From the IMG/VR virus record IMGVR_UViG_2939702853_000005, positions 9,323 through 73,322 of that record: a DNA stretch of 64,000 nt. One strand, written 5' to 3'. Both the position numbers and the translations under genes were made by a program. The notes below the pieces were generated by a model. The model ran no database searches, was not told the DNA's origin, and was given only the letters and a program-made list of their open reading frames with translations. This document shows positions 24,801-64,000 of this stretch, in pieces. Every line of letters starts with the position of its first letter. Positions within the stretch are counted from its first letter, which is position 1. The stretch is from a virus (lineage: Duplodnaviria; Caudoviricetes).

Positions 24801-25826
24801 ACTTGCAGTTTTAGCGGAAGACTCTAAATCCCTGAATCCTTGTTGTATCTGTTTGATTTTATTTTTCAAACCAGAATCATTAATGTCTAATTTTGAAGCA
24901 TTGTTCAAAAGAGAAGTCAGATCAGCTTGATTAACTGTTGACCCATATTTAGTATTTAAACGTTTAGCGCTTGCTTCAGCTTGTTGTTTAAACTCATTCA
25001 GATTTTGGAGTTTACTTTGATTGGTTTTCGTTTCAGATATTTCTTGTTGTCGTAGGTTTCTAGTCCACCAATCCGCGTATTCTTTTCTAGATTGTTGATT
25101 TTTTAAATCAGCGGCTCTTTGTAGTTCAGCATTCTTTTGAATACCCTGCTGTTGATTTGTTGCTAGTTGTCTCTCTGAATCTCTAACTCTTTCCATAGAC
25201 TTAATACGTCCATCATACATCTGATTGACAAGAGACTCTTGATCTTTCAACATTTTAGCATGGTTAATTATCTCGTCGTACTTCTTTACAGTGCCATTTT
25301 GATCAATATTAGCTGTAACTTTTTGTCCAGTTTCTTTATTTTCGTATGTATTTTTATAACCAACTACTTGACCTTTACCATTCTTAATAGCTTTCTCGTT
25401 TGCTAGATTATAGCCTTTTAACTCAGCTTCCAATTGTTGAATTGACTTTCGTTGTTTATCATATGCTTCAGTCTCTTGCTGTAACTTCATTCTATGTTCA
25501 TCAATAACTTTATTGGTCTTGGTAATGATATTGTTGTCGGCTGATCTTAGTTCAGTTATTTTTTCTATGCTTCCATCTAATCGTTTATATGTAGTTGTAG
25601 TTTCACTAACAATCTTATTTTGCTGCTCCATTGCTAAATTTAACTTATTGGCAGCGGATACAAAGCTATTCATAGTTGCTACAAAACTCTTATCAATATT
25701 GATTTTAATATTCAAACTTTGAAGAGAAGGGTGTTTGCTTAGAGCCTTCAATTTTTCATTGATGTTTTTAACACTGGAACCCATATTGAGGTCAGCTTGC
25801 ACTAAAATTTTTAATCTATCAGGCAT
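18834..25826 (-). CDS. Tape measure protein with NlpC/P60 peptidase and SLT lytic transglycosylase domains
   Basis: 2330 aa, mostly coiled coil; DCSLFVQ...LPRT...GDLVFF...HVGFYMGDG; GVDPALIKAIIQQESS...ALAMYNMGPG. Confidence 0.93.
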   Translation of the reverse strand: MPDRLKILVQADLNMGSSVKNINEKLKALSKHPSLQSLNIKINIDKSFVATMNSFVSAANKLNLAMEQQNKIVSETTTTYKRLDGSIEKITELRSADNNIITKTNKVIDEHRMKLQQETEAYDKQRKSIQQLEAELKGYNLANEKAIKNGKGQVVGYKNTYENKETGQKVTANIDQNGTVKKYDEIINHAKMLKDQESLVNQMYDGRIKSMERVRDSERQLATNQQQGIQKNAELQRAADLKNQQSRKEYADWWTRNLRQQEISETKTNQSKLQNLNEFKQQAEASAKRLNTKYGSTVNQADLTSLLNNASKLDINDSGLKNKIKQIQQGFRDLESSAKTASTQVQSFGDKVSHAFKSIGAHLIAGALYGTVFSSISEGFKGMVDIETKMAGYIQTNEHYFQGLQHGALDMQKVNDQSKQFIQTAHDQGAAINDVIESARLWGRMYKDVGVVQTLVRQSTMLSTVDLVSLEDATKSMESVLAQYGVQLKNTNDAQLYGGRILDSWSKVAHETMAPARDLGAAFERTGKIAQETGVSFDFMNGLISSGMRNTALSGENLGNMWKTVLGTIRTGKAVSEIEKLGVKTKEVVNGVEQWRKAEDILLDLSVAVTDKNYDLTQSYAAISRGVYQYAKLAASLNPGDILLGTAYSIGSTGSTLEYLTTQMDTISRKASQVKTSFIDIFNTAGNDGLRSMIKTVLDITDQLFIGLTKIPSSVFGVTAATVGLGAAFLALKSPVKNVIDSLTVVRGMRQGLVVVTNSETTAVTASSVANAAHAVTSRTATTAEVGRTVATEATTVAINAQTAASARAAVMTSVATMGISVAIGLLASLALGMGTAEKAQRDETQKIKDNISAREQQISQIDRQIDFFPKLIKAHNDLTKVVNSGTLSEIAQGKAKKQLDEISKAIAVTIGDEGLARLKAAGFTEEAANKEIAVLKALKLEKEELNRQSLISQKNSINQDIKDKQDEIAKAEATLNNKALYLKGPNVHQFRVKEYEEQKKAVDKLKVELLNLRNSMADVNVLYAESTLKSDQLAATEGKVANATEDASESREKLNKTLDDSASELKTLNQIMYDQQKNGYLSAATVADLIKKNPQLAASIKKVKDGYVLENGAIENLRQAQILMVKQALEGEKQREINNINSVISNINAYGLELNSIKDLADAKKALVKIDEEIAKSKLPMTDGLKNALGISKDQEVPTFRTKVLEEQRSELDKFTSALDEKSKQAKEMLGIFSDPDLGVSKEATKKNEQYNDSLSETNEILTETQKKLKAIAAAQDAQTSRMSRLKKGTEEYGKALKEQIKLLEKQAELYTEGIKDPSKLVSTKVTTTTKGGTGLDSMISEALSLSSSKTFKYSQAAKSNVSYDQFTATAVSDCSLFVQQMFKEFLDIKLPRTTQEQVKQGQAVTNKKDLQKGDLVFFNTIKGKANSHVGFYMGDGNFMQMGDSGIKQGNLNDKYWSTRYSGARRVPGANAIPEIQSPSTSTSTKVTGKNADLINKYAGANGVDPALIKAIIQQESSNGANGIKNVMQVSSLGKNTSVESSIKTGTSMFAKYLNQTGNVDVALAMYNMGPGILDYFNKNGGYSAENMKKFSAMQKNKLGSKIYGDVNYVGNVLRYYNGDTSSVTGGKSKNKYTLPSASDMDKAQEDARKNRTTAYDNIYKARVDYIENYVTMSQNKLDALDVDIAKSQGRQAKYDQVSANWRKEESAQIKSLTAQQKELVSQNINLDNLVKQNKITAGEFDKQKSSNSTKWWELEQQKQEKYYAVIVSNLDEYEKKVNAAADKIALSKARMESLDENSKAYQQELITQIGLINEQRVATEKEILAVERQLKNEKLNLQNKEELSKRLQDLTLKNIEYNNAIYSIKSAAADKIIEAYKKMVEKQKDLALKAIDKQKEAEDKRHEARLKNLEEESDRFEEIIKRQLQELDRTSESDDYDKELKKKLDERQKIQDKINELALNNSYEAKAKRKELTDQLDAKNEEIDKFKLDRERELRKEGLNDQLEDRKKYLDKTKDTEDRTHDAITDNIEREKELTEQKYDDILEDEQRFYRMKQDLMSDDKTKVKSVIDELKGEYSKFFTFLQEQSLETSKQMQNMLDSLSMDQGRLDDFLNLDSGIGNGSSVGIGGGTGTGKGDDKASQKGDWDKYLSNKQKAENISKQVVQLQREKKPDTNKIKSLQAQFKQLKQENDAMRSKWGFPDGSYDYLNKIKPFSAETGGMTPANMPKEGQFLLAHQKELILNKSDTGNLLKIIDVTRGIVDSVKSTFNPNIVKNNNTSTASSDNSIHIEKVEIHANDKDSGSTILTKLIDAAKTQSKRGILGNNYGFNL

Positions 25827-54891: not shown

Positions 54892-55721
54892 GATGGTAAG
54901 AGAGTTTCCCTATATTTGTGGGTAAGGTCAAAAGAATCGTCACAAAAAATTAGCAAGCTAATTATTTCGTTCCGTCATCCAGTCACAGGTGACTGTCTGT
55001 AATTTGTATTTTCTCTGATAAATAATGAACAGTCATTCTTCGTGTTAATTTGGATTCTATTGTTCGAATCATAGATTGATCTATAGGAATGAAATTATTT
55101 GGTGGATGGTTAATGGAAGGGTAGGGTAAAGAAGACAAATTATAAAACTCTATACTTTTCTATGTAGGAGTTATGAGACCCAAGGTGAATTTAACAATCA
55201 GTCAAATGGGATTAAATAATAAGTTTGTTGACGAATATATGGGCAATTAATTGTATTTCGGATTATAAGGTAAGACATTCAGAAATGGATGTCTTTTTTG
55301 CTTGTCTTGAGGGAAGTTAAAATACCTTCAATCGTGATGATAAAAAAGCTCAATCGTGAATATAGATAAATTGACTAAAAACACTTATAGAATAAGGATA
55401 ATTGAGTGTGTCGAGTTAAGTAATGATATGCTGAATCGCAAAAGGGTAGATGTGTAAAGGGTAATTTAATAAATATTAGATGAAAATAGCCGAAAAAGGC
55501 ATGGTTACAGGATTGTAATAGGAGATAAAAAATAGATAAACAAAGGGGAGTTACGATTGAGTTTACGATTGAGATAAGGTGAAAATACGATGAAATAGTT
55601 ACAAAATTTTAATATAAAGAAGGAGTGAAAAAATAACTTCAGTGTCGAAGTGGAAGTGCTACAGCATTATTTGTAAAAAATAGATGTTGATTGGATGTAA
55701 ACCACCCCCCGGTATACTCTC

Positions 55722-55757
55722 CTAGATACCATATAAGTATAGTTGTATGGTATCTAG
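55722..55757. repeat. 12-bp inverted repeat next to a C-run
   Basis: CTAGATACCATA / TATGGTATCTAG, preceded by ACCACCCCCCGG at 55701. Confidence 0.8.
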
Positions 55758-56145
55758 AGAAGGACAATGAATAGAAAATACTTGACAAAATGGTGTGAAT
55801 ATAATTCTATGAAATTGTAAAAAAATACTAAATATACTAGTTTAAATTTGAAACCTTTGGGCCGATAAGGAGGAGGGCAGAGGGGCAGCAAGTCGTTGTA
55901 ATCGGTAGGTGACACGAATGGCATTAGACAAGACTATCACCAATTATATTGTATCATATATATTAACTGCCAACCATATCATTATAAATTAAATTGTACA
56001 CAATATAATATCATCAAATTTAATATCAACCAACTTAATGCTCTCCATCTACCATTACCATTTACTCTATCTCGCTCACTCAATACCATGACACAATCAC
56101 TCATGCATCTTACCATAATTATCAAGTCTCATCAATTTCAATAAG

Positions 56146-56200
56146 CAAAAATAATTAAATCCTTGTAATATCATACCGTCTGTGTTATAATTATATATGT
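56146..56200 (+). promoter_or_regulatory. SigA-type early promoter with upstream AAAWATAATTAAA motif
   Basis: TTGTAA...TGTTATAAT; motif recurs at about 56873, 59594, 60448, 61334. Confidence 0.6.
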
Positions 56201-56230
56201 AAGGAAGAGACGCAGAAAGGAGGTGGTAAC

Positions 56231-56431
56231 ATGATAGAAACGATAGGCAAAATACTTGCAACGGTTGGGGCTGCATTAACCACAACAATACTTGCAATGA
56301 ACTTCTTCCCTGACAAGGCCAGAAAGATTGCTGATACTGAAAAGGTTAAAGCTGAAACAGAGAAAATAAAGGAGGAAACAAGAAGGCTCAAACTTGAGAA
56401 TGACAAGCTAGAACGTGACAATCAGGTATAA
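56231..56431 (+). CDS. Small membrane protein (N-terminal TM plus charged tail), YonT-like type I toxin candidate
   Basis: GGAGGTG RBS; hydrophobic N-terminus; followed by hairpin GAAGGAGTC-GAATT-GACTCCTTC. Confidence 0.6.
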   Translation: MIETIGKILATVGAALTTTILAMNFFPDKARKIADTEKVKAETEKIKEETRRLKLENDKLERDNQV

Positions 56432-56542
56432 TACATATATCCTGTATGGGCTGAAGGAGTCGAATTGACTCCTTCTAATCTCTAGGATACAATAACATTG
56501 AGTTTGTTGTGATACGGTATCAAATGTGAAAGGAGATTGTAC

Positions 56543-56704
56543 ATGACCAACAATAAGACGATAGCTACGCGTATACTATCGGTCATTGTATTCCTTATTG
56601 GATGTGTCTTGCTAGGTATGGATAGTACAACATTGCCCACCTTCCTACCTTATGCATTCATCTTTATAAGTGTAATAACCTTTGTAGCTTCAATCAGAAA
56701 GTAA
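56543..56704 (+). CDS. Small two-TM protein (53 aa)
   Basis: Not in ORF track; MTNNKTIATRILSVIVFLIGCVLLGMDSTTLPTFLPYAFIFISVITFVASIRK; AAGGAG RBS. Confidence 0.6.
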   Translation: MTNNKTIATRILSVIVFLIGCVLLGMDSTTLPTFLPYAFIFISVITFVASIRK

Positions 56705-56961
56705 TAAGACATACCATATGTAATCATCAGGTTGTACGCTGTGTACAGCTCTTACAAGCAGATATAGGCCTAGGCAATAACATGTCTAGGCTCTTTACTA
56801 TGCCGTTATTCTTTTACCTACATCAACAAGCTACTTAGGTCTATTCAAATCCTACCTATCAAATTCAATAAGTAAATATAATTAAATAAATACTGTACAT
56901 TATACTAGACATATGTTATAATTATATATGTAAGGGATACACACCGAAAGGTGGTGACACC

Positions 56962-57153
56962 ATGCAAGAATACATACCTTACATTGCTCTAATCATAAAC
57001 TTTCTCGGTTTTGCGCTTCGGATTCTCAAATTCATCTTTGATGAAAAACGAGCAAGACGCAAAGAGGAAGCAGAACGATTAGACAAGCTCAAAGAAGCTG
57101 AAAATGAAAAGAGTGCATTTCCTCCTAGAAAGGAAACACACTCAAAGCGTTGA
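56962..57153 (+). CDS. Small membrane protein (N-terminal TM plus charged tail), YonT-like type I toxin candidate
   Basis: Same promoter/RBS layout as 56231; YIALIINFLGFALRILKFIF TM. Confidence 0.6.
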   Translation: MQEYIPYIALIINFLGFALRILKFIFDEKRARRKEEAERLDKLKEAENEKSAFPPRKETHSKR

Positions 57154-57254
57154 AGCTTTAAACAACTAGGGGAATCAAATGGTTCCCTTAGTTCCTCACC
57201 TACATATTATCATAAGCGTTGACTATAGACAACATAAAGGAGGAATTACACTAT

Positions 57255-57425
57255 ATGAAACGATTTATTAAACGTATACCATCAAATGTATTGCTTATTA
57301 TCTGTGCCATTGCATCTTTATTTATTGAGTATCCAAATTCAATAAGATTTGTTGCTTGGATATTAGCGGCTTTAATGATCGCAACAGGTGTATTGGGCAT
57401 CATAAGAGATAAAAATAATAAGTAA
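57255..57425 (+). CDS. Small two-TM protein
   Basis: ATG at 57255 after GGAGG; two hydrophobic segments. Confidence 0.6.
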   Translation: MKRFIKRIPSNVLLIICAIASLFIEYPNSIRFVAWILAALMIATGVLGIIRDKNNK

Positions 57426-57517
57426 TGAATAAGCCTGATATTCTAATGTAGCAACAAATTACCTTTCTTATCTCATGTGATACAATATTGCTATTACTCT
57501 TGATAGGATGGGATGTT

Positions 57518-58024
57518 ATGAATGACGATATATTGAAGCAAATAGAAATACCACCTAAGCTGCAAGAACATCTGAATTTAATGAAAAAGGTTATGGATAG
57601 CGATTACTATAAGACTGCATTTGATATGGTTTCTAAGTATGACAATCTGAAGCCTACCATTGACCATATAAAACAAATAAAACCATCTCTTGATTTGGTG
57701 AAAGATATACCATCTGAATACTTTAAACTAAATGAGATAACGCAAAAGTTCTTTAATCAAATACCAACTTCGACTAACAATAAAACTGACCGTTTATCCA
57801 ATAATGATATTCCAACTACTCATGACGTGGATGAGTTTTTTGATACAGTTGAAAAAATCGTGCCACAGATAGATGATGAGGAATGTCGCAATGATGTACA
57901 ACAACTCGTTACTGAGGCCAAGAAAGAATATAAATTCTTTGATTGGCATGAAGTAACAATGACAAAGGTTATCCCTTGGATTCTTGCAATAGTTGCGCTC
58001 ATTAATGCTATATATCATTCGTAG
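57518..58024 (+). CDS. Hypothetical protein with C-terminal hydrophobic anchor
   Basis: ORF ending VIPWILAIVALINAIYHS, followed by terminator. Confidence 0.55.
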   Translation: MNDDILKQIEIPPKLQEHLNLMKKVMDSDYYKTAFDMVSKYDNLKPTIDHIKQIKPSLDLVKDIPSEYFKLNEITQKFFNQIPTSTNNKTDRLSNNDIPTTHDVDEFFDTVEKIVPQIDDEECRNDVQQLVTEAKKEYKFFDWHEVTMTKVIPWILAIVALINAIYHS

Positions 58025-58042
58025 ATAATACCATACACAAAC

Positions 58043-58073
58043 AAGCCTAGATGATCCTGTCTAGGCTCTTTTT
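58043..58073 (+). terminator. Intrinsic terminator
   Basis: AGCCTAGA-TGATCCTG-TCTAGGCT-CTTTTTT; related hairpin at about 56766-56795. Confidence 0.7.
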
Positions 58074-58157
58074 CTGCTTACTGTTTAGGGTTGTATAAAC
58101 GATTCACTTACTCGGTATCATATTCATTTTTTCAATTGTAGACAATTCCTCATTGGT

Positions 58158-58376
58158 TTACTTTTCAATTTTAACGGTAATCAATTGCGCTAAATCAGTT
58201 AGTTCAAACGTTCTCATAATAGTAGTAATTTGTTCCCGTGAAAATGTTTTATTTACATTTCTAGCCCATTCACTAATAGTTGCCTCGCGTATACCCATTT
58301 CTTTATGTGCTGTCTTAAAATCCCATCCACGTTGTTTCAGTAGGAAATTAAGATGACATTCTATAACGATATTCAT
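58158..58376 (-). CDS. Cro/C1-type (Xre) HTH regulator
   Basis: LNFLLKQRGW...MGIREATISEWARN...ITTIMRTFEL..LITV. Confidence 0.8.
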   Translation of the reverse strand: MNIVIECHLNFLLKQRGWDFKTAHKEMGIREATISEWARNVNKTFSREQITTIMRTFELTDLAQLITVKIEK

Positions 58377-58528
58377 TTCAATAAACCTCCAGATGTATCC
58401 TTTGTATTCTTATTATAAGGAGTGATTACGATATGTGCAATTACGAAAATCGAATTTATTTGTTTACAAATACGAATTTCGCATCTATAATAGAAATATA
58501 AAGAAGAACACAAAGGAGACGATACATA

Positions 58529-59113
58529 ATGAACAAACTAATTGGATGCAAGGTATTTGGAAATTGGGGTATGGCAGGATGGGATTATGGAATTGTTGTA
58601 AATGAATTTTCTGACTCTCTAGGTACAGACGTTACTATTGAATGGGAGGACGGACGACAACAAACTGTGGACGAAAAAGATATTGTAGAAATCAATGACG
58701 ATACTGATATTGAAACTGTAGGCTTTTACATCGATGTAAAAGGAGAATACCTTTCATCGAATATAAATGTTCAAATCACCAAAGAAGCCAGACTTCCAAA
58801 GGAATCAATTAATCAAGCCGTTACTAATAAATCCAACCACTCACCACGAATCACAAACTATGATTTACTTGATGACCTAGACAAACTTAGAGCATTAACT
58901 TCTTGTCTTGTAGACGCTATTGAGTCTCTTAATGCGCGGACATATGGATATAATTCATTGCTGATATCCGAACAGCAACGTGCTAAAACTATATTCTTTG
59001 AAGAATTAAACACAAATAATGTAAAAATTACTTCGGCAATTATCAATAAGGCTAAACGACTTTCTTGGAATACTTTAGCTTCCTTACTGCATGAATGTAT
59101 TGGCAATAAATAA
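58529..59113 (+). CDS. Hypothetical early protein
   Basis: Divergent from HTH gene; promoter TTTACA..TATAAT and GGAG RBS. Confidence 0.55.
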   Translation: MNKLIGCKVFGNWGMAGWDYGIVVNEFSDSLGTDVTIEWEDGRQQTVDEKDIVEINDDTDIETVGFYIDVKGEYLSSNINVQITKEARLPKESINQAVTNKSNHSPRITNYDLLDDLDKLRALTSCLVDAIESLNARTYGYNSLLISEQQRAKTIFFEELNTNNVKITSAIINKAKRLSWNTLASLLHECIGNK

Positions 59114-59139
59114 ACTTGTTAAAAAGGAGAGGAAGACAA

Positions 59140-59283
59140 ATGACCTATTTAGTTATGTGGGAAGTAAGGATTCCATACAAACATAAAAACAGTAGAATAC
59201 TGCATTATAAAATAAGGAAATATAACAAACCCGCTCAAACACTCGAAGATGCTGAAAAAATAAAGTTAGAAAAAGAGAAATAG
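59140..59283 (+). CDS. Small hypothetical protein (47 aa)
   Basis: Not in ORF track; GGAGAGG RBS; MTYLVMWEVRIPYK... Confidence 0.45.
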   Translation: MTYLVMWEVRIPYKHKNSRILHYKIRKYNKPAQTLEDAEKIKLEKEK

Positions 59284-59641
59284 GGCTATTGGGTGAAGAT
59301 CATTAAAGAATAAGACTTAATAAATTGAGGAGAATGTGAAAATTAATGAAAAACATACGAGTAGTCAAACAAAACGGATCAACCATCATACATAAACTAG
59401 GAACCAACTTAGACATTCTTGAACTATTACGGCTTTCCAAATGGATAGAGTAGATTACGAAGGCAAGTATGTCTATATACATCTAAAAGGGTGAATTAAA
59501 TGAGTTTATGGAGACTCAAAGATAAAATATCGTTTTTATTAAGTGTTACGTTGTGGCTGGTCGGTATAGTAAAAATTTATTTTTAATCTCTATATACAAA
59601 TATAATTAAAATGTTTCACGTGGAACAATAATTTATTAAAG

Positions 59642-59848
59642 GTGGGAATATTAATGGGAAACTTGATGAATAAATATAGTGAGTGGAGAAAAGTATCAGA
59701 ACAAATGTTAGAGGATGGTTTCAGTGGTTCTGTTGATTGCGGAGAATCTATAGTTAGAGATGATTTTTCTCAATACGCAAAACTTGAATCAACAATTAGC
59801 TTTGATGATATGTTTGCTATAGAACTGGAATATGATACAATGTTTTAA
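59642..59848 (+). CDS. Small acidic hypothetical protein
   Basis: 68-aa ORF directly upstream of the Cas11-like gene. Confidence 0.5.
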   Translation: MGILMGNLMNKYSEWRKVSEQMLEDGFSGSVDCGESIVRDDFSQYAKLESTISFDDMFAIELEYDTMF

Positions 59849-59880
59849 AAGTGATTCATTTAACAAGGAGGTCTGAAGCT

Positions 59881-60351
59881 ATGAAAGTAGTAGAAATGGA
59901 CATAAAAATGACAACGAAAAAAGTTATTGAAAGCTTATTATCAGAAAATCCATCTCTCTCTATTTCCACAGATGAAGAATACTATTTTATTTACGGACAG
60001 ATAATAAGTCATTTAACCTATCTGTTGTACAAACAAGAAATAAAATATGTTCACGGTACTGGGAACTATGGATATACAATTAAGCAATGGAAAGAAAAAT
60101 TTGAAAGATGTAATAGTCCAAAAGCTCAAAAGACACAAGTCGAAAACTTTATGAAAGAATACGCTTATTTAATCGACTTAGAAAATAGACATCTAAGAAA
60201 TGGGTTAGCAATGTTTTTTGGATATCGACCAGATAAACCTATGGTGAAATTTGGTTACAAATATTACGCATATGGCACTGCCGTTTCAACGCTTTTTTTG
60301 AAAGATGCTACACAGATTTCTGATTTTAATTTGAATATTAGTTTAGAGTAG
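59881..60351 (+). CDS. Stand-alone Cas8b(Csh1)-C-terminal/Cas11-like protein; candidate anti-CRISPR
   Basis: SISTDEEYYFIYGQ, FMKEYAYLID and LRNGLAMFFGYRP recall the Cas8b C-terminal domain pattern (from memory, not searched); ATG 59881 after AAGGAGG. Confidence 0.5.
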   Translation: MKVVEMDIKMTTKKVIESLLSENPSLSISTDEEYYFIYGQIISHLTYLLYKQEIKYVHGTGNYGYTIKQWKEKFERCNSPKAQKTQVENFMKEYAYLIDLENRHLRNGLAMFFGYRPDKPMVKFGYKYYAYGTAVSTLFLKDATQISDFNLNISLE

Positions 60352-60411
60352 AAAATTAAAATAACCGTAACATAAGATGTACAAAAGAAAACTTAATACA
60401 TATGGAAAATA

Positions 60412-60438
60412 CAACCGTCTAAAAAGGCGGTTTTTTAT
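60412..60438 (+). terminator. Intrinsic terminator
   Basis: AACCGTCT-AAAA-AGGCGGTT-TTTT. Confidence 0.7.
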
Positions 60439-60536
60439 TGTTTTAACATACAAAAATAATTAAATATATTGAAATATATAACGAATTATGTTATAATAAG
60501 TACATAAAGAAGAAACGATAACGAGGTGAAAACACA

Positions 60537-60632
60537 ATGAGTCAATCTAAATTAGCAGTATTAAAAAGCCAATGGCAGCGCAAGCAAGTGTTAAAGGCCC
60601 AAACTGTATTTGGTCACCTAGTACTGAGATAA
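60537..60632 (+). CDS. Small basic peptide (31 aa)
   Basis: Not in ORF track; GAGGTG RBS directly behind a TGTTATAAT promoter. Confidence 0.4.
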   Translation: MSQSKLAVLKSQWQRKQVLKAQTVFGHLVLR

Positions 60633-60682
60633 TTTTAAATCAATAAACAAATATAAATAAATATATAAAGGTGGTAATTAAA

Positions 60683-61318
60683 ATGACAAACTTCAACAGT
60701 ATGAATATGGCAGACAAATTAGACTGGCTGTCTGAATCTCTAGCAACTGAAATTGCTAGGGTCGCATATACATCTTGGAAGCACTTGAACGATGAACAAA
60801 AAGAATTGGTAAAAGTGGCATTTCATGAAGATTTGAATTCTAACAACATTGATGTTACCGACGAACTCATTAAAGCAGTAAAAGCGGAGTTCACAGGATC
60901 TCCTATGGCTTCAATGCTTGTCGAATACATAAGTAAGTTTGCAAAGGTAACGAAACAACTTAAATCGGAGTCCAAAGCAACAATCATTAAATTTAATGAA
61001 TTCGGCTTTCCTGTGATTCTTCATACAGTTATTAAAGGTTTCGAGATTAAACCCTACGCACAATATAATGATTCACTTGTAATTGAACATAAGCCAAAAC
61101 AAAGACGAAAAGTGTGGGAAACAAGGGTTTTGCCTTATGAGGAATTAATGATATATGACGGATGGGTTGATATTGATACTGAAAAAGCTTTGCATAATAT
61201 CATTAAGTCTGATGATTATGTAACAGTTAAACAATCCAAATATGGCTGTTTCGATAAGCGTTTTCTGAGTGATATTAAAGATTTAATCCATAAAGAACCA
61301 TTAGTATTAATAAAATGA
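60683..61318 (+). CDS. Hypothetical early protein
   Basis: 211-aa ORF with AAGGTGG RBS. Confidence 0.55.
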   Translation: MTNFNSMNMADKLDWLSESLATEIARVAYTSWKHLNDEQKELVKVAFHEDLNSNNIDVTDELIKAVKAEFTGSPMASMLVEYISKFAKVTKQLKSESKATIIKFNEFGFPVILHTVIKGFEIKPYAQYNDSLVIEHKPKQRRKVWETRVLPYEELMIYDGWVDIDTEKALHNIIKSDDYVTVKQSKYGCFDKRFLSDIKDLIHKEPLVLIK

Positions 61319-61381
61319 TAATTAGATTCCTATATACAAAAATAATTAAATGTGTTATAATTAATGTATAAATAAGAAGAG

Positions 61382-64000
61382 GTGATTCGGATGTATTATG
61401 GTGATAAGAGAGAGTCAAAAGTAAACATTGCTAGAGTACTTGTTGAAAAGGGTTGGAAAATTTACGGTTACAAAAATGATGAATCTAATATGATGGTTGA
61501 CTATTACTCACCAGCAGACTGGGGCGGAATTGCTGAAAAAGATGGATTTATTCTTTGCATTGATCAATCTAGTTTGTCCTATAGCGGATATGAACAAAAA
61601 GAATACATAGGTGGTAATGCTGAATATAAAACTAATGCACGTATTCAAAAACTTGAGGCAATGATGAATGATGAGGCTTCAACTGATAATGAAAAGGCTT
61701 CTTGTGCAGTATTGATTGAGAAGGAAAAAGAAAAGGCAGGAATGATTGAGAAGTATAAAGTTGTTGAAACGTATCCTACATTTTCGCATCCAAATCCTAA
61801 AAGTTGTTCGTGGCATATTGAAAAAGACGGTCAAATTATCGCTAAGGGTACAGGCGTATTCGCTTGCTATCAAAATAATGACCATATTGAAACTAATCGT
61901 ATCGAACGTGATACTAAAATAAATAAATTGATTGCACGTTTTGAAAAAGCAATTAAAGATACAGGTGCATTAAAAGGTGAAGTGGTTAAGGTTGAAAAGA
62001 AAGTTATTAAACCAGTTGAAAAAGAAGATAAAACTATTAACGTTGACGATGTTTTATCCTTCTCTTATCATGGACATTATTGGGTAGTTACTGAAGTTTA
62101 TAAAAACAAAAATAATTATACTTGTATTGTTTATGAACTCTTAGGAAGTGCAAAGCGTGGCTACCAGCGTTTGAAATGGACAAATACTACACGATACTAT
62201 GAAACATTGGATAGACTTAACAAAGGAATGGAAGAAGGGAAAGTAAAAGTACACACCTTGCAAGAGGTAATAGAATACCAAGAAAAAACAGTGTTTAAGA
62301 AGACATCTCGTAAGCAGAACGTTTCTAATGTTCCAGCCATTGAAACCACAGAAGAAACACAAGAAACAGTAAGTGACAACACAGAAGAAAACGAAGTTGA
62401 AGAACCAGCTACAACTAGACAACTATGGGCATTACATTGCGCTACCAAACTTGACACTAGAGGAATGAAAATTAGCAAAACAAAAGCGTCCGAATTGATT
62501 ACAAAGTCAAAAGCAGGACATAACATTATATTAGAAGTAAAGGCGCATATGAACACTAATGAAACAATTGCACCAGATAAAGAAAATGGATTAATTGGTA
62601 AATCAGGAGAGGTAACGGAGACAAATAATTATAACGAATCACAAATCTATGAAAGCATTGATATTGAAGATCTGGATCAGTATACCGTTTCTGATGAACT
62701 TCAAGCGCGTTTACATTCTTCCAGTATGTTTCAAGTGGATTATAAAAAAGATTGCTATAATACCTTTTTAGAGATTCAGGAAATAGCTAAGAAGACAATT
62801 GATGAAGTAAATGATACATCTATCCAGTACCAGATTAAAAAATACCTTCAGTCATTTAAAAAACGATACTATGAAAAATACATCGAGATTTTAAATCATC
62901 GTGCAAATAATCCATCATGGGCCGTCACTGGTCGTGGAGGGCTGAACGTCAGACGCTATAACAAAATGCAAGACAGATATGGGAATATGTTGGGTGAGTT
63001 TTCAAAGATGAGACAAGGATTCGAAAATAAAATGAACAGATTTAGGGATTCAGTTAGACAAGTAGAGCAAGATAAAATTAAGAAAGCAGTAAATAATGTT
63101 ACGACTACTCTAGAATTTAAAGTAGAACAAAAGGAAATTAATGTTGCTGGGTACAAAGAGAAAGTAAGAACATATAACTATAAAAATTATATGATAGCAA
63201 AATCATGGGGAATGTTTCGGGTGTTTAAGGATGGAAAAGAGGTAGAAACCACACTTAAGACAACAAGTAGATTAGATGAAGCTAAGCAATTTGTCAATTA
63301 TTTAGTTGGAAAAGAAGAGCAGGTAACAGATGAAGCAATAAATAACAGCGATAATAAAAGACGAATTTTACAAGAAGAATCAGGAAGTAAAAATAGCAAT
63401 CAGCAGCAATATATTAGCAAGATTAATAAGCAAATCGAGTCAGCACAAAGGAAAGTGAATGCCTTGTCTGGTGATTATTTAACTAACACATGGAAACGCC
63501 AGCAAGAAGCAGCAAGCCGAGAACAGAAAAAAGATAATTTGAACTTAGAAATTAGTATTCTGGAACATCTAAAAGAAAAGGCAACTAATAACATAATGAA
63601 TGAATTCGACATAGCTCTATTAGTGGGTAGCTTTAGGGAAGATATGAGAGTCAAATATAAATCAAGAGGTAAGCACAATTATGAAGTAAAATATCCGACT
63701 ATTAATCCAGATATCGATGTTAACGGCTGGTGGAATCTAGAGGTTCCGAAATTGCAGAAGCGCTTGAACAAAGCAGGAATACACAATACAGAGCAATACA
63801 ATGAAGCAATAGATAAATATGCTGCACTTGTAAAAGCTATAGAAAGACCAGTCAATCCAATACAACAGAAGATTAAGAAAATGGAAAGTGAAGCTAAGCT
63901 CCGTAAAATTGATGGATATTTTCCGACACCTAAAACAATTGTTCAACGCATGATTGAATTGGCAGACATACAAGATAGTGAAACCTATTTAGCCCCCTAG
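61382..64000 (+). CDS. Large polyvalent-type phage protein with start of an adenine methyltransferase domain, ending at window edge
   Basis: Multi-domain; NNPSWAVTGRGGLNVRRYNK motif; C-terminal GYFPTPKTIV..MIELADI precedes the SAM-binding LEPSAG motif in such MTases. Confidence 0.6.
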   Translation: MIRMYYGDKRESKVNIARVLVEKGWKIYGYKNDESNMMVDYYSPADWGGIAEKDGFILCIDQSSLSYSGYEQKEYIGGNAEYKTNARIQKLEAMMNDEASTDNEKASCAVLIEKEKEKAGMIEKYKVVETYPTFSHPNPKSCSWHIEKDGQIIAKGTGVFACYQNNDHIETNRIERDTKINKLIARFEKAIKDTGALKGEVVKVEKKVIKPVEKEDKTINVDDVLSFSYHGHYWVVTEVYKNKNNYTCIVYELLGSAKRGYQRLKWTNTTRYYETLDRLNKGMEEGKVKVHTLQEVIEYQEKTVFKKTSRKQNVSNVPAIETTEETQETVSDNTEENEVEEPATTRQLWALHCATKLDTRGMKISKTKASELITKSKAGHNIILEVKAHMNTNETIAPDKENGLIGKSGEVTETNNYNESQIYESIDIEDLDQYTVSDELQARLHSSSMFQVDYKKDCYNTFLEIQEIAKKTIDEVNDTSIQYQIKKYLQSFKKRYYEKYIEILNHRANNPSWAVTGRGGLNVRRYNKMQDRYGNMLGEFSKMRQGFENKMNRFRDSVRQVEQDKIKKAVNNVTTTLEFKVEQKEINVAGYKEKVRTYNYKNYMIAKSWGMFRVFKDGKEVETTLKTTSRLDEAKQFVNYLVGKEEQVTDEAINNSDNKRRILQEESGSKNSNQQQYISKINKQIESAQRKVNALSGDYLTNTWKRQQEAASREQKKDNLNLEISILEHLKEKATNNIMNEFDIALLVGSFREDMRVKYKSRGKHNYEVKYPTINPDIDVNGWWNLEVPKLQKRLNKAGIHNTEQYNEAIDKYAALVKAIERPVNPIQQKIKKMESEAKLRKIDGYFPTPKTIVQRMIELADIQDSETYLAP

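What the first reader, a model, noticed from the sequence alone, without database searches (positions are those of the whole stretch)
58158..60438. Stand-alone Cas11-like (Cas8b C-terminal) gene in the early region: candidate Cascade-mimic anti-CRISPR
The 156-aa protein carries motifs in the same order and similar spacing as my recollection of the type I-B Cas8b/Csh1 C-terminal domain, which is also made separately as Cas11: SIxxDEEYYFxxGQ, FMKxYxYLID, NxLAMxxGYxP. No other cas genes or CRISPR array are in the window. It sits in a terminator-bounded cluster of small early genes behind an operator-bearing region, near an Xre HTH, a typical acr/aca-like context. Viral Cas homologues that poison type I-B Cascade, including a Cas8b-C/Cas11-like one in Listeria phages, have been described. 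This would be a candidate against a different I-B variant in Paenibacillaceae, and the neighbouring 68-, 47- and 194-aa ORFs are further anti-defence candidates.
Basis: inference. Interest (0 to 1): 0.75.

Follow-up and report, generated by a model that had tools for sequence, protein, structure and literature searches.

The report
Prophage Cas11-like anti-CRISPR candidate
A large Paenibacillus prophage carries a stand-alone, selectively maintained copy of the small-subunit (Cas11) end of the type I-B CRISPR protein Cas8b, most likely a decoy that disables I-B CRISPR defence; this kind of decoy is already known from Listeria, but this is a separate and untested family.

Summary
Window 59881-60351 (+) encodes a 156-aa protein with the stated motifs. 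It is a true homologue of the Cas8b C-terminal (Cas11b) domain: PADLOC Cas8b E 1.4e-9, profile-profile 97.9% (E 4e-13), and a reciprocal HMM search that hits only Cas8b C-termini. The model is all-helical, and its best annotated structural matches are Cas8c C-terminal domains.

It is the last gene of a promoter-to-terminator cassette beside a divergent small HTH gene, in a large siphovirus prophage with no cas genes or array.

The family is tiny: nine stand-alone members, those whose loci were read lying in Paenibacillus/Paenibacillaceae prophage or accessory regions. They form their own clade apart from bona fide Cas8b, and the gene is under purifying selection (dN/dS 0.12).

The resident host has type I-C, not I-B. 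The cognate I-B system does occur in the genus (3/92 species), and one of those carries a spacer matching this prophage 35/36 with a TCR PAM-like flank. A relative sits in P. haidiansis, whose apparently intact I-B system has near-perfect spacers against its own prophage.

An AcrIB4-like Cas11 mimic is the best reading (about 0.6), but it is untested. A conserved 64-aa acidic neighbour is a second candidate. This is a new member of a known kind.

The parts
59881..60351 (+). 156-aa stand-alone Cas8b-C-terminal / Cas11b homologue (P0001): the candidate anti-CRISPR
   Evidence: homology. AF2 with 14-sequence alignment gives pLDDT 84.9, six helices; best annotated structural matches are Cas8c C-terminal domains, Z 6.8; dN/dS 0.12 against the L023 orthologue.
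59654..59848 (+). 64-aa acidic protein (pI 4.05), directly upstream; conserved partner and second anti-defence candidate
   Evidence: 54-59% identical in loci where the Cas11-like proteins are only 32-34% identical. Among 401 Paenibacillaceae genomes it was found only in this genome and in G187 and G197, the two I-B carriers of the 200-genome sample. No similarity to Cas8b or to any solved structure.
58529..59113 (+). 194-aa first gene of the cassette, function unknown
   Evidence: no family. Conserved (86%) only in the closest relative L023.
59140..59283 (+). 47-aa basic ORF with SD; followed by two tiny SD-preceded ORFs at 59346-59453 (35 aa) and 59500-59586 (28 aa, hydrophobic)
   Evidence: Read from the sequence. 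No other evidence that they are genes.
58158..58376 (-). 72-aa Cro/C1-type HTH protein, divergently transcribed; aca-like regulator candidate
   Evidence: Pfam HTH_26 E 2.7e-4, 21.6 bits, just under the 22-bit cut-off. Small HTH_26/XRE genes hold the same position in L023, L020/L021 and L006 but are only 16-20% identical.
58438..58491 (.). Divergent promoter/operator region: 22-nt direct repeat (58438-58459, 58467-58488; core ACGAAWWTCG) overlapping the rightward promoter TTTACA-17-TATAAT (58463-58491)
   Evidence: These are consensus matches only.
60413..60432 (+). Intrinsic-terminator-like hairpin plus T-run that ends the cassette; its counterpart upstream is at 58044-58067
25342..25380 (+). 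Protospacer (25345-25380) in the 2330-aa tail gene, with 5' flank TCG. It is matched 35/36 by a spacer of the type I-B array of another species of the same genus (G229).
   Evidence: The flank fits the TCR motif seen at five independent protospacers of these I-B systems.

Best explanation
The 156-aa protein is a phage-borne descendant of Cas11b, the small subunit of type I-B Cascade. Cas11b is normally made by internal translation of the 3' end of cas8b. The protein is expressed from a small HTH-controlled accessory cassette of a large temperate siphovirus. It most likely works as a faulty subunit: it takes a Cas11b/Cas8b-C-terminal-domain position on the belly of I-B Cascade, so the complex assembles but cannot form or hold a productive R-loop, and interference fails. 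This is the mechanism shown or proposed for AcrIB4 of Listeria. Its target would be the Cas8b (PADLOC PDLC01507)-type I-B systems found in a minority of Paenibacillus species, not the type I-C system of the present lysogen. Shown here: the homology, the orphan and mobile context, purifying selection, and that this phage lineage is recorded as a target in a cognate I-B array. Inferred: binding to Cascade and inhibition.
For: Homology to the Cas8b C-terminal domain. Predicted all-helical fold whose best annotated structural matches are the C-terminal (Cas11-equivalent) domains of Cas8c in I-C Cascades (8g9s_K Z 6.8, rmsd 3.7, 118 aligned; 8dej_I Z 6.8), with I-B CAST Cas11 and Cas8 C-terminal domain lower (Z 3.8, 3.5). 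All five Paenibacillaceae cas8b genes have a conserved internal SD plus start that would give a 136-166 aa product, the size of the stand-alone proteins (117-156 aa). Internal translation of Cas11b is documented in PMC11899642 and 10.1101/2020.04.18.045682. The nine stand-alone proteins form one group apart from ten Cas8b C-terminal domains (support 100/99) on a long branch, as reported for AcrIB4. dN/dS is 0.12. The cassette recurs beside small HTH or RHH-like genes in different prophage backgrounds with no cas genes nearby. The cognate I-B system exists in the genus (3/92) and the family (2/200). A G229 I-B spacer matches this prophage 35/36, with the mismatch at position 15 and flank TCG. 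P. haidiansis M1 (G187) carries family member P0006, an I-B operon intact by ORF length, and spacers matching its own prophage 34/35 and 35/36 with TCG/TCA flanks. Precedent and mechanism: AcrIB4 and its predicted replacement of Cas11 (10.1101/2025.06.06.658234).
Against: No functional or binding evidence exists for any member of this family. The lysogen that carries the gene has only type I-C, and none of its spacers matches the window, so the gene has no evident job in this host. Identity to Cas8b C-terminal domains is only 18-20%, and the branch is long, so the ancestral interactions may be lost. Structural Z-scores of 6-7 are within the range the tool warns is common for helical bundles, and the top structural match is an uncharacterised E. 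rectale protein (3e0z, Z 10.4). In the self-targeting genomes the inhibitor could be another gene: the acidic 64-aa partner occurs in G197 without the Cas11-like gene. The relationship to AcrIB4 itself was not tested.
Confidence: 0.6

Rival explanations
1. The Cas11-derived fold has been put to another use in the phage, unrelated to blocking CRISPR. Examples would be a nucleic-acid- or protein-binding helical module for replication, regulation or superinfection exclusion, or a helper that boosts a host Cascade.
For: The host lacks I-B. There is a long branch and only 18-20% identity to Cas8b C-terminal domains. The P0001-P0005 subgroup has a roughly 20-aa C-terminal tail with no counterpart in the shorter stand-alone members and no conserved similarity to Cas8b. 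The best structural match is a non-Cas protein of unknown function (3e0z, Z 10.4). Katz et al. themselves raise pro-CRISPR roles for captured cas genes.
Against: Residues conserved between the stand-alone proteins and Cas8b are spread over the whole domain. The accessory-cassette context with a small regulator is typical of acr loci. There is an association with I-B self-targeting genomes. A cognate I-B spacer targets this phage.
Confidence: 0.17
2. The effective inhibitor of the cassette is the conserved 64-aa acidic protein. The Cas11-like protein is an accessory part (for example a docking adaptor) or a second, independent anti-defence gene.
For: The 64-aa protein is better conserved than the Cas11-like protein across distant loci (54-59% against 32-34%). 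It is small and acidic (pI 4.05). Outside this genome it was found only in the two I-B carriers of the family sample, both with self-targeting spacers. In G197 it stands alone.
Against: Two loci (P. kribbensis L020, P. terrae L022) have the Cas11-like gene without the partner, so each can exist alone. The Cas11-like gene is itself under purifying selection. Nothing is known about the partner's fold or target.
Confidence: 0.13
3. The protein inhibits the resident type I-C Cascade, acting across subtypes by taking the place of Cas11c.
For: The lysogen has a complete I-C locus with 51 repeats. The best annotated structural matches are I-C Cas8c C-terminal domains. The I-C array holds one perfect spacer against another contig of the same genome.
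Against: There is no sequence or profile similarity to the host Cas8c. The stand-alone HMM hit no Cas8c in 93 genomes. Host Cas7c and I-B Cas7b are only 25% identical. The self-target has a 5' flank AGC rather than the TTC PAM known for I-C (own knowledge), so it need not be cleaved. No I-C spacer matches the window.
Confidence: 0.07
4. It is a decaying remnant of a phage-borne I-B CRISPR-Cas system, or a chance similarity.
For: Phage-borne I-B operons exist, for example on a Clostridium phage D-1873 contig.
Against: The frame is intact with its own strong SD. dN/dS is 0.12. Nine members share a conserved core. No other cas fragment or array lies in the window. The statistics rule out chance.
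Confidence: 0.03

Closest known systems
AcrIB4 of Listeria seeligeri mobile elements (Katz et al., bioRxiv 10.1101/2023.06.24.545427; mechanism proposal in 10.1101/2025.06.06.658234)
   Same: A small stand-alone protein homologous only to the last ~90-110 residues of Cas8b (the Cas11b-equivalent domain). It is encoded on a mobile element outside any cas locus, in an accessory gene cluster, and forms its own clade apart from bona fide Cas8b.
   Different: AcrIB4 homologues were reported only in Listeria. This family is in Paenibacillus/Paenibacillaceae prophages and relates to a different Cas8b subfamily (PADLOC PDLC01507). Identity to Cas8b is 18-20% rather than 38%. The window's subgroup carries a C-terminal tail. 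It often travels with a conserved 64-aa acidic partner. Activity is untested. A direct comparison with the AcrIB4 sequence could not be made; tblastn of P0001 against 50,697 phage records found nothing.
Cas11b, the small subunit of type I-B Cascade made by internal in-frame translation of cas8b (PMC11899642; 10.1101/2020.04.18.045682; I-B structure PMC11096372)
   Same: Homologous domain, similar length (117-156 aa against 136-166 aa predicted from the internal starts), all-helical.
   Different: It has its own gene and SD, lies in a prophage far from any cas operon, in a genome without I-B, and is deeply diverged from every sampled Cas8b C-terminal domain.
Other Cas-derived anti-CRISPRs and orphan viral cas genes (AcrIB3 = Cas5-like, AcrVIA2 = Cas3-like; 358 orphan viral cas genes in IMG/VR; Katz et al.)
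   Same: The same evolutionary route: capture of a cas gene or fragment by a phage, kept in an anti-defence locus.
   Different: A different subunit. This family was not found in IMG/VR by pattern scan.
PDB 3e0z, EUBREC_1070 of Eubacterium rectale (107 aa, structural-genomics target, function unknown)
   Same: Best structural match to the model: Z 10.4-10.5, rmsd 3.1 Å, all 107 residues aligned.
   Different: No detectable sequence similarity. Its genomic context and function are unknown to me. No paper in the library mentions it.

Membership tests
Cas8b C-terminal domain / Cas11b (type I-B small subunit) superfamily | Significant sequence-profile similarity to the C-terminal ~110-140 residues of Cas8b | tested here: met
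   PADLOC PDLC01507 E 1.4e-9. hhalign Prob 97.9%, E 4.1e-13, 109 columns. The reciprocal HMM hits only Cas8b C-termini. In 400 Bacilli genomes, all five further hits lie in 576-632 aa Cas8b frames.
Cas8b C-terminal domain / Cas11b (type I-B small subunit) superfamily | Helical-bundle fold of Cas11 / large-subunit C-terminal domain | tested here: inconclusive
   The AF2 model (pLDDT 84.9) has six helices. VIA-align gives Z 6.8 and 6.2 to I-C Cas8c C-terminal domains, and Z 3.8/3.5 to I-B CAST Cas11/Cas8 C-terminal domain. This is below the level the tool regards as specific for helical bundles. Foldseek found nothing at E <= 0.001.
Cas8b C-terminal domain / Cas11b (type I-B small subunit) superfamily | Encoded within or next to a type I-B cas operon and assembled into Cascade as a working subunit | tested here: not met
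   No cas gene or array lies in the window, and the genome has only I-C on another contig. It is therefore a homologue, not a bona fide Cas11b of a resident system. Assembly cannot be tested here.
AcrIB4-type Cas-derived anti-CRISPR | Homology restricted to the Cas8b C-terminal domain, encoded on a mobile element outside CRISPR-Cas loci | tested here: met
   (homology). (phage: terminase, portal, tail, integrases). (relatives in prophage accessory regions).
AcrIB4-type Cas-derived anti-CRISPR | Separate clade from bona fide Cas8b | tested here: met
   Nine stand-alone proteins against ten Cas8b C-terminal domains, bipartition support 100/99. The tree is unrooted and rests on 137 columns.
AcrIB4-type Cas-derived anti-CRISPR | Direct sequence relationship to AcrIB4 itself | not tested
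   No AcrIB4 sequence was obtainable through the tools. P0001 gave no tblastn hit in the phage collection.
AcrIB4-type Cas-derived anti-CRISPR | Inhibits type I-B interference upstream of DNA binding | not testable with these tools
   The evidence is circumstantial only: a cognate I-B spacer against this phage, and self-targeting I-B genomes that carry the family or its partner.
acr-aca locus architecture | Small HTH regulator adjacent to the candidate acr operon | tested here: met
   A divergent 72-aa HTH_26-like gene (21.6 bits against a 22-bit cut-off) with repeat-bearing divergent promoters. The position is conserved but the regulators are not homologous across loci. A role as Aca is inferred.
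Cas11c / Cas8c C-terminal domain (type I-C) | Sequence-profile similarity to Cas8c | tested here: not met
   BLASTP and hhalign against the host Cas8c gave nothing. The stand-alone HMM hit no Cas8c.

The most novel reading that the evidence does not exclude
The Cas11 mimic and the conserved 64-aa acidic protein form a two-part inhibitor. The mimic docks on the Cascade belly in place of Cas11b and positions the acidic partner, or it works across subtypes on both I-B and the resident I-C Cascade. That would be a Cas-derived targeting module coupled to a separate effector, which has not been described for anti-CRISPRs.
Probability: 0.12. Interest if true: 0.72.

Novelty: new member of a known kind. 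Interest (0 to 1): 0.5.

Why it matters
Cas-derived anti-CRISPRs show how phages turn captured defence genes into weapons. AcrIB4 was the only reported Cas11/Cas8b-tail example and was reported only in Listeria.

A second family, in soil Paenibacillus phages and matched to a different Cas8b subfamily, would show that Cas11 mimicry is a recurrent way to disable type I Cascades. Whether it is truly independent of AcrIB4 was not tested. If it is active, it would add an inhibitor for a I-B variant used for endogenous genome editing in Bacillota.

The work also yields two testable natural settings. P. haidiansis M1 and a second Paenibacillaceae genome (G197) have apparently intact I-B loci and perfect or near-perfect self-targeting spacers.

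It also yields a small acidic protein whose distribution tracks those genomes.

Tried and rejected
- **Family libraries:** Pfam, NCBIfam and PHROGs gave nothing for the protein.
- **Full-length relatives by single sequence:** the word-index search for longer relatives found none. phmmer over 1.84 billion representatives found only short stand-alone relatives. The link to Cas8b needed profiles.
- **Solved structures by sequence:** no relative.
- **Structure and fold searches:** AF2 with 5 sequences gave a poor model (pLDDT 50.6). Foldseek against the PDB gave no match at E <= 0.001. The ESM Atlas gave no usable feature hit. Its own poor model gave TM 0.39 to a Csh1 cluster, too weak to count.
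- **Other collections:** the IMG/VR pattern scan and INPHARED tblastn found no relatives. Genome contigs gave only P. haidiansis M1.
- **Host I-C spacers:** none match the window.
- **G187 spacers:** none match the window.
- **Contig junction in G187:** I tried to show that G187 contigs C12 (start) and C23 (end) are one prophage. The gene order fits, but there is no sequence overlap, so this is not shown.
- **Phage lineage in G197:** I looked for the window's phage lineage there. Only a 29%-identical portal was found, on another contig.
- **AcrIB4 search:** Cas8b C-terminal domains used as queries against the phage collection found only a real cas operon on a Clostridium phage D-1873 contig.
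- **The 64-aa partner:** no similarity to Cas8b or to PDB chains, and no Atlas hit.
- **RNA families:** no Rfam match in 55000-64000.
- **Net charge:** does not separate the stand-alone proteins from Cas8b C-terminal domains.
- **Tools unavailable:** No complex prediction, expression data or host-CRISPR typing of the P. terrae and P. kribbensis carriers could be obtained.
Full report
**What is there.** Window 59881-60351 (+) encodes a 156-aa protein (P0001) behind a strong Shine-Dalgarno (AGGAGG, 8 nt before the ATG). It is the last gene of a compact plus-strand unit:
- a promoter-like site at 58463-58491 (TTTACA-17-TATAAT);
- ORFs of 194 aa (58529-59113), 47 aa (59140-59283), two tiny ORFs (59346-59453, 59500-59586) and 64 aa (59654-59848);
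- the 156-aa gene;
- a terminator-like hairpin at 60413-60432.

A 72-aa Cro/C1-type HTH gene (58158-58376, minus strand; Pfam HTH_26 at 21.6 bits against a cut-off of 22) is transcribed divergently. The shared control region holds a 22-nt direct repeat that overlaps the rightward promoter.

The window is a large temperate siphovirus. It has a terminase, portal, minor tail proteins, a 2330-aa tail gene, two integrase-family genes and a RecD2-like helicase, and its portal is about 30% identical to that of Brevibacillus phage Sundance. It lies in a 5.14-Mb genome, at C11:83169-147168, 79 bp from the contig end.

**Is the Cas8b resemblance real?** Yes.
- Pfam, NCBIfam and PHROGs are silent. PADLOC's Cas8b model PDLC01507 matches residues 11-134 to profile positions 437-545 of 559 at E 1.4e-9.
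- I collected five full-length Cas8b genes of this type from Paenibacillaceae genomes and eight stand-alone relatives.
- Profile-profile comparison of the nine stand-alone proteins with the five Cas8b C-terminal domains gives Prob 97.9%, E 4.1e-13 over 109 columns. D31, E33, Y35, G39, Y115 and G132 are invariant across all 14 sequences.
- The reverse test is clean. An HMM built from the stand-alone proteins alone, run in six frames over 93 genomes of the genus, hits only this ORF and the C-terminal ends of the three full-length Cas8b genes.
- In 400 further Bacilli genomes, all five hits lie in 576-632 aa Cas8b frames.
- With the 14-sequence alignment AlphaFold gives a confident six-helix model (pLDDT 84.9, pTM 0.83).
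- An all-against-all structural search puts the C-terminal domains of Cas8c in type I-C Cascades at ranks 2-4 of 48,161 chains (Z 6.8, 6.8, 6.2). I-B CAST Cas11 and the Cas8 C-terminal domain rank lower (Z 3.8, 3.5).
- Those Z-scores are not specific for helical bundles, so I count the fold as consistent rather than proven.
- The top match is an uncharacterised 107-aa E. rectale protein (3e0z, Z 10.4). I could not follow it up.

**Why 'Cas11-like'.** In type I-B and I-C systems the small subunit Cas11 is made by internal in-frame translation of the 3' end of cas8 (10.1101/2020.04.18.045682; PMC11899642). All five Paenibacillaceae cas8b genes have a conserved internal start behind a purine-rich SD (for example GAAGGAGG, 7 nt before the ATG). 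That start would give a product of 136-166 aa. The stand-alone proteins are 117-156 aa and begin at about the same alignment position.

**The family and its contexts.** The family is very small.
- Searches of 5.8 billion clusters and 1.84 billion representatives gave eight relatives. Four are close (46-86% identity; three named P. terrae, Paenibacillus sp. 1-18 and P. kribbensis, the fourth unnamed). Four are distant 117-124-aa forms (31-34%).
- No relative was found in IMG/VR or in 50,697 phage records.
- The six contexts I could read have no cas genes nearby. Five are prophage or phage-type regions:
  - next to the lysis genes at the end of a P2-like prophage of P. kribbensis;
  - at a prophage end in P. 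haidiansis M1;
  - in a contig of the same phage type as the window, upstream of a methyltransferase-helicase gene;
  - in a short contig with the same HTH | X | small | Cas11-like order;
  - in this window.
- The sixth, a 16.6-kb P. terrae contig, has no recognisable phage genes.
- The small divergent regulators share their position but not their sequence (16-20% identity).
- In a maximum-likelihood tree the nine stand-alone proteins are one side of a branch (100/99) against ten Cas8b C-terminal domains from six families, on a long branch. This is the pattern reported for AcrIB4.
- dN/dS between the window gene and its 86%-identical orthologue is 0.12.

**Which CRISPR system could it meet?** Not the resident one.
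- The genome's only Cas1 belongs to a complete type I-C locus (cas3-cas5c-cas8c-cas7c-cas4-cas1-cas2, 51 repeats) on contig C2.
- The protein has no similarity to the host Cas8c.
- Host Cas7c is only 25% identical to I-B Cas7b.
- No host spacer matches the window.
- The matching Cas8b type occurs in 3 of 92 other species of the genus and 2 of 200 sampled genomes of the family.

I extracted the arrays next to those I-B loci. One spacer of the same-genus genome G229 matches window 25345-25380, inside the 2330-aa tail gene, at 35 of 36 positions. The mismatch is at position 15 and the 5' flank is TCG.

Four other protospacers of these I-B systems have flanks TCA, TCA, TCG and TCA. TCR is therefore the likely PAM, and the window's protospacer fits it. 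This phage lineage is thus on record as a target of the cognate I-B system.

**Self-targeting genomes.** P. haidiansis M1 (G187) carries family member P0006 and an I-B operon that is intact by ORF length (cas6-cas8b-cas7-cas5-cas3-cas4-cas1). Its spacers match a resident prophage on contig C12:
- 34/35 in the major tail gene, flank TCG;
- 35/36, flank TCA;
- 31/36.

A further 32/36 match lies 2.8 kb from P0006 itself. Gene order suggests that C12 and the P0006-bearing end of C23 are one prophage, but there is no overlap to prove it. Such genomes are the classical hunting ground for anti-CRISPRs. The inhibitor, however, need not be P0006.

**The 64-aa neighbour.**
- The ORF directly upstream (pI 4.05) is 54-59% identical in loci where the Cas11-like proteins share only 32-34%.
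- Among 401 Paenibacillaceae genomes it was found only in this genome, G187 and G197. G187 and G197 are exactly the two I-B carriers of the earlier 200-genome family sample.
- In G197 it stands without a Cas11-like gene.
- G197's I-B array has three perfect matches to its own genome (36/36, 36/36, 35/35).
- Two loci have the Cas11-like gene without the partner.

The two genes are therefore separable, and each is a candidate. These counts are small, and related genomes are not independent.

**Mechanism.** The best-supported reading is subunit mimicry. A diverged Cas11b keeps enough of the interface to take a small-subunit or Cas8b-C-terminal-domain position in I-B Cascade. The resulting complex cannot complete or stabilise the R-loop.

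For AcrIB4, Cascade still assembles, DNA binding is blocked, and a predicted complex places it where Cas11 binds the Cas8b C-terminal domain. For this family, binding and inhibition are inferred.

I put this reading at about 0.6. The rivals are:
- another, non-CRISPR use of the fold (0.17);
- the acidic partner being the real inhibitor (0.13);
- action on the resident I-C (0.07);
- a remnant or chance similarity (0.03).

**Novelty and score.** This is a new, rare member of a known kind: Cas-derived anti-CRISPR candidates of the AcrIB4 type. It occurs in a new host group and relates to a different Cas8b subfamily. Its conserved acidic companion has a distribution that tracks I-B self-targeting genomes. 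A specialist would find it plausible rather than surprising, so interest is 0.5. Earlier notes of this scan describe similar orphan Cas fragments in other genomes. I did not test them.

Noticed in passing
G000 contig C2:183000-202000 (L004) and C2 ~214-215 kb; contig C29:62016-62050: The host has a complete type I-C locus flanked by arrays (51 repeats in all). One spacer matches the genome's own contig C29 35/35, with 5' flank AGC rather than the TTC PAM known for I-C (own knowledge). I did not look at what lies at C29.
   Followed up: partly
G000 contigs C3:256121-256155 and C51:6088-6123: Type I-B spacers of two other species of the genus (G229, twice; G207) match these places in the window's genome perfectly (35/35, 36/36), both with a TCA flank. 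They are presumably further mobile elements shared across the genus.
   Followed up: no
G187 = Paenibacillus haidiansis M1, C34:221-237 kb, C12:1-35.6 kb, C23:526-542 kb: A self-targeting genome: an I-B operon intact by ORF length, whose spacers match a resident prophage (34/35, 35/36, 31/36, 32/36). C12 and the end of C23 may be one prophage split by the assembly.
   Followed up: partly
G197 C7:318094-331362 (I-B arrays); C20:8698, C15:123911, C5:96638: A second Paenibacillaceae genome with I-B and three perfect self-targeting spacers. It carries the 64-aa acidic protein at C15:24621-24806 without a Cas11-like gene.
   Followed up: partly
window 58529-59113 and 60683-61318: By eye, the C-terminal part of the 194-aa protein (…LNTNNVKITSAIINKAKRLSWNTLASLL…) resembles the N-terminal part of the 211/215-aa protein of the next operon (…LNSNNIDVTDELIKAVKAEFTGSPMASML…). 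This may be a shared module. I did not test it.
   Followed up: no
window 61382-64000 (runs off the window and nearly off the contig): An ORF of more than 872 aa (phrog_27491) ends in a GYFPTP… stretch. In the related contig L023 the corresponding genes are a 727-aa protein and a 1006-aa N6-methyltransferase/DEAD-helicase protein. This may be a DarB-like anti-restriction gene next to the cassette.
   Followed up: no
G000 C11 end (last 95 bp) vs C18:431-525, C19:1-94, C41:19197-19287: The last 95 bp of the window's contig are repeated exactly on three other contigs. The prophage is therefore cut by an assembly repeat, and its right end is not in the window.
   Followed up: no
PDB 3e0z (EUBREC_1070, Eubacterium rectale): An uncharacterised 107-aa helical protein is the best structural match to the model (Z 10.4, all residues aligned), above all Cas chains. 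It may be another orphan Cas11-like protein or only a similar bundle.
   Followed up: no
L046 = ACSJ01000019.1 1-4143 (Clostridium phage D-1873 contig): The contig carries a type I-B operon (3' part of cas8b, cas7, cas5 Hmari subtype, cas3). The first two are annotated only as conserved hypothetical proteins.
   Followed up: partly
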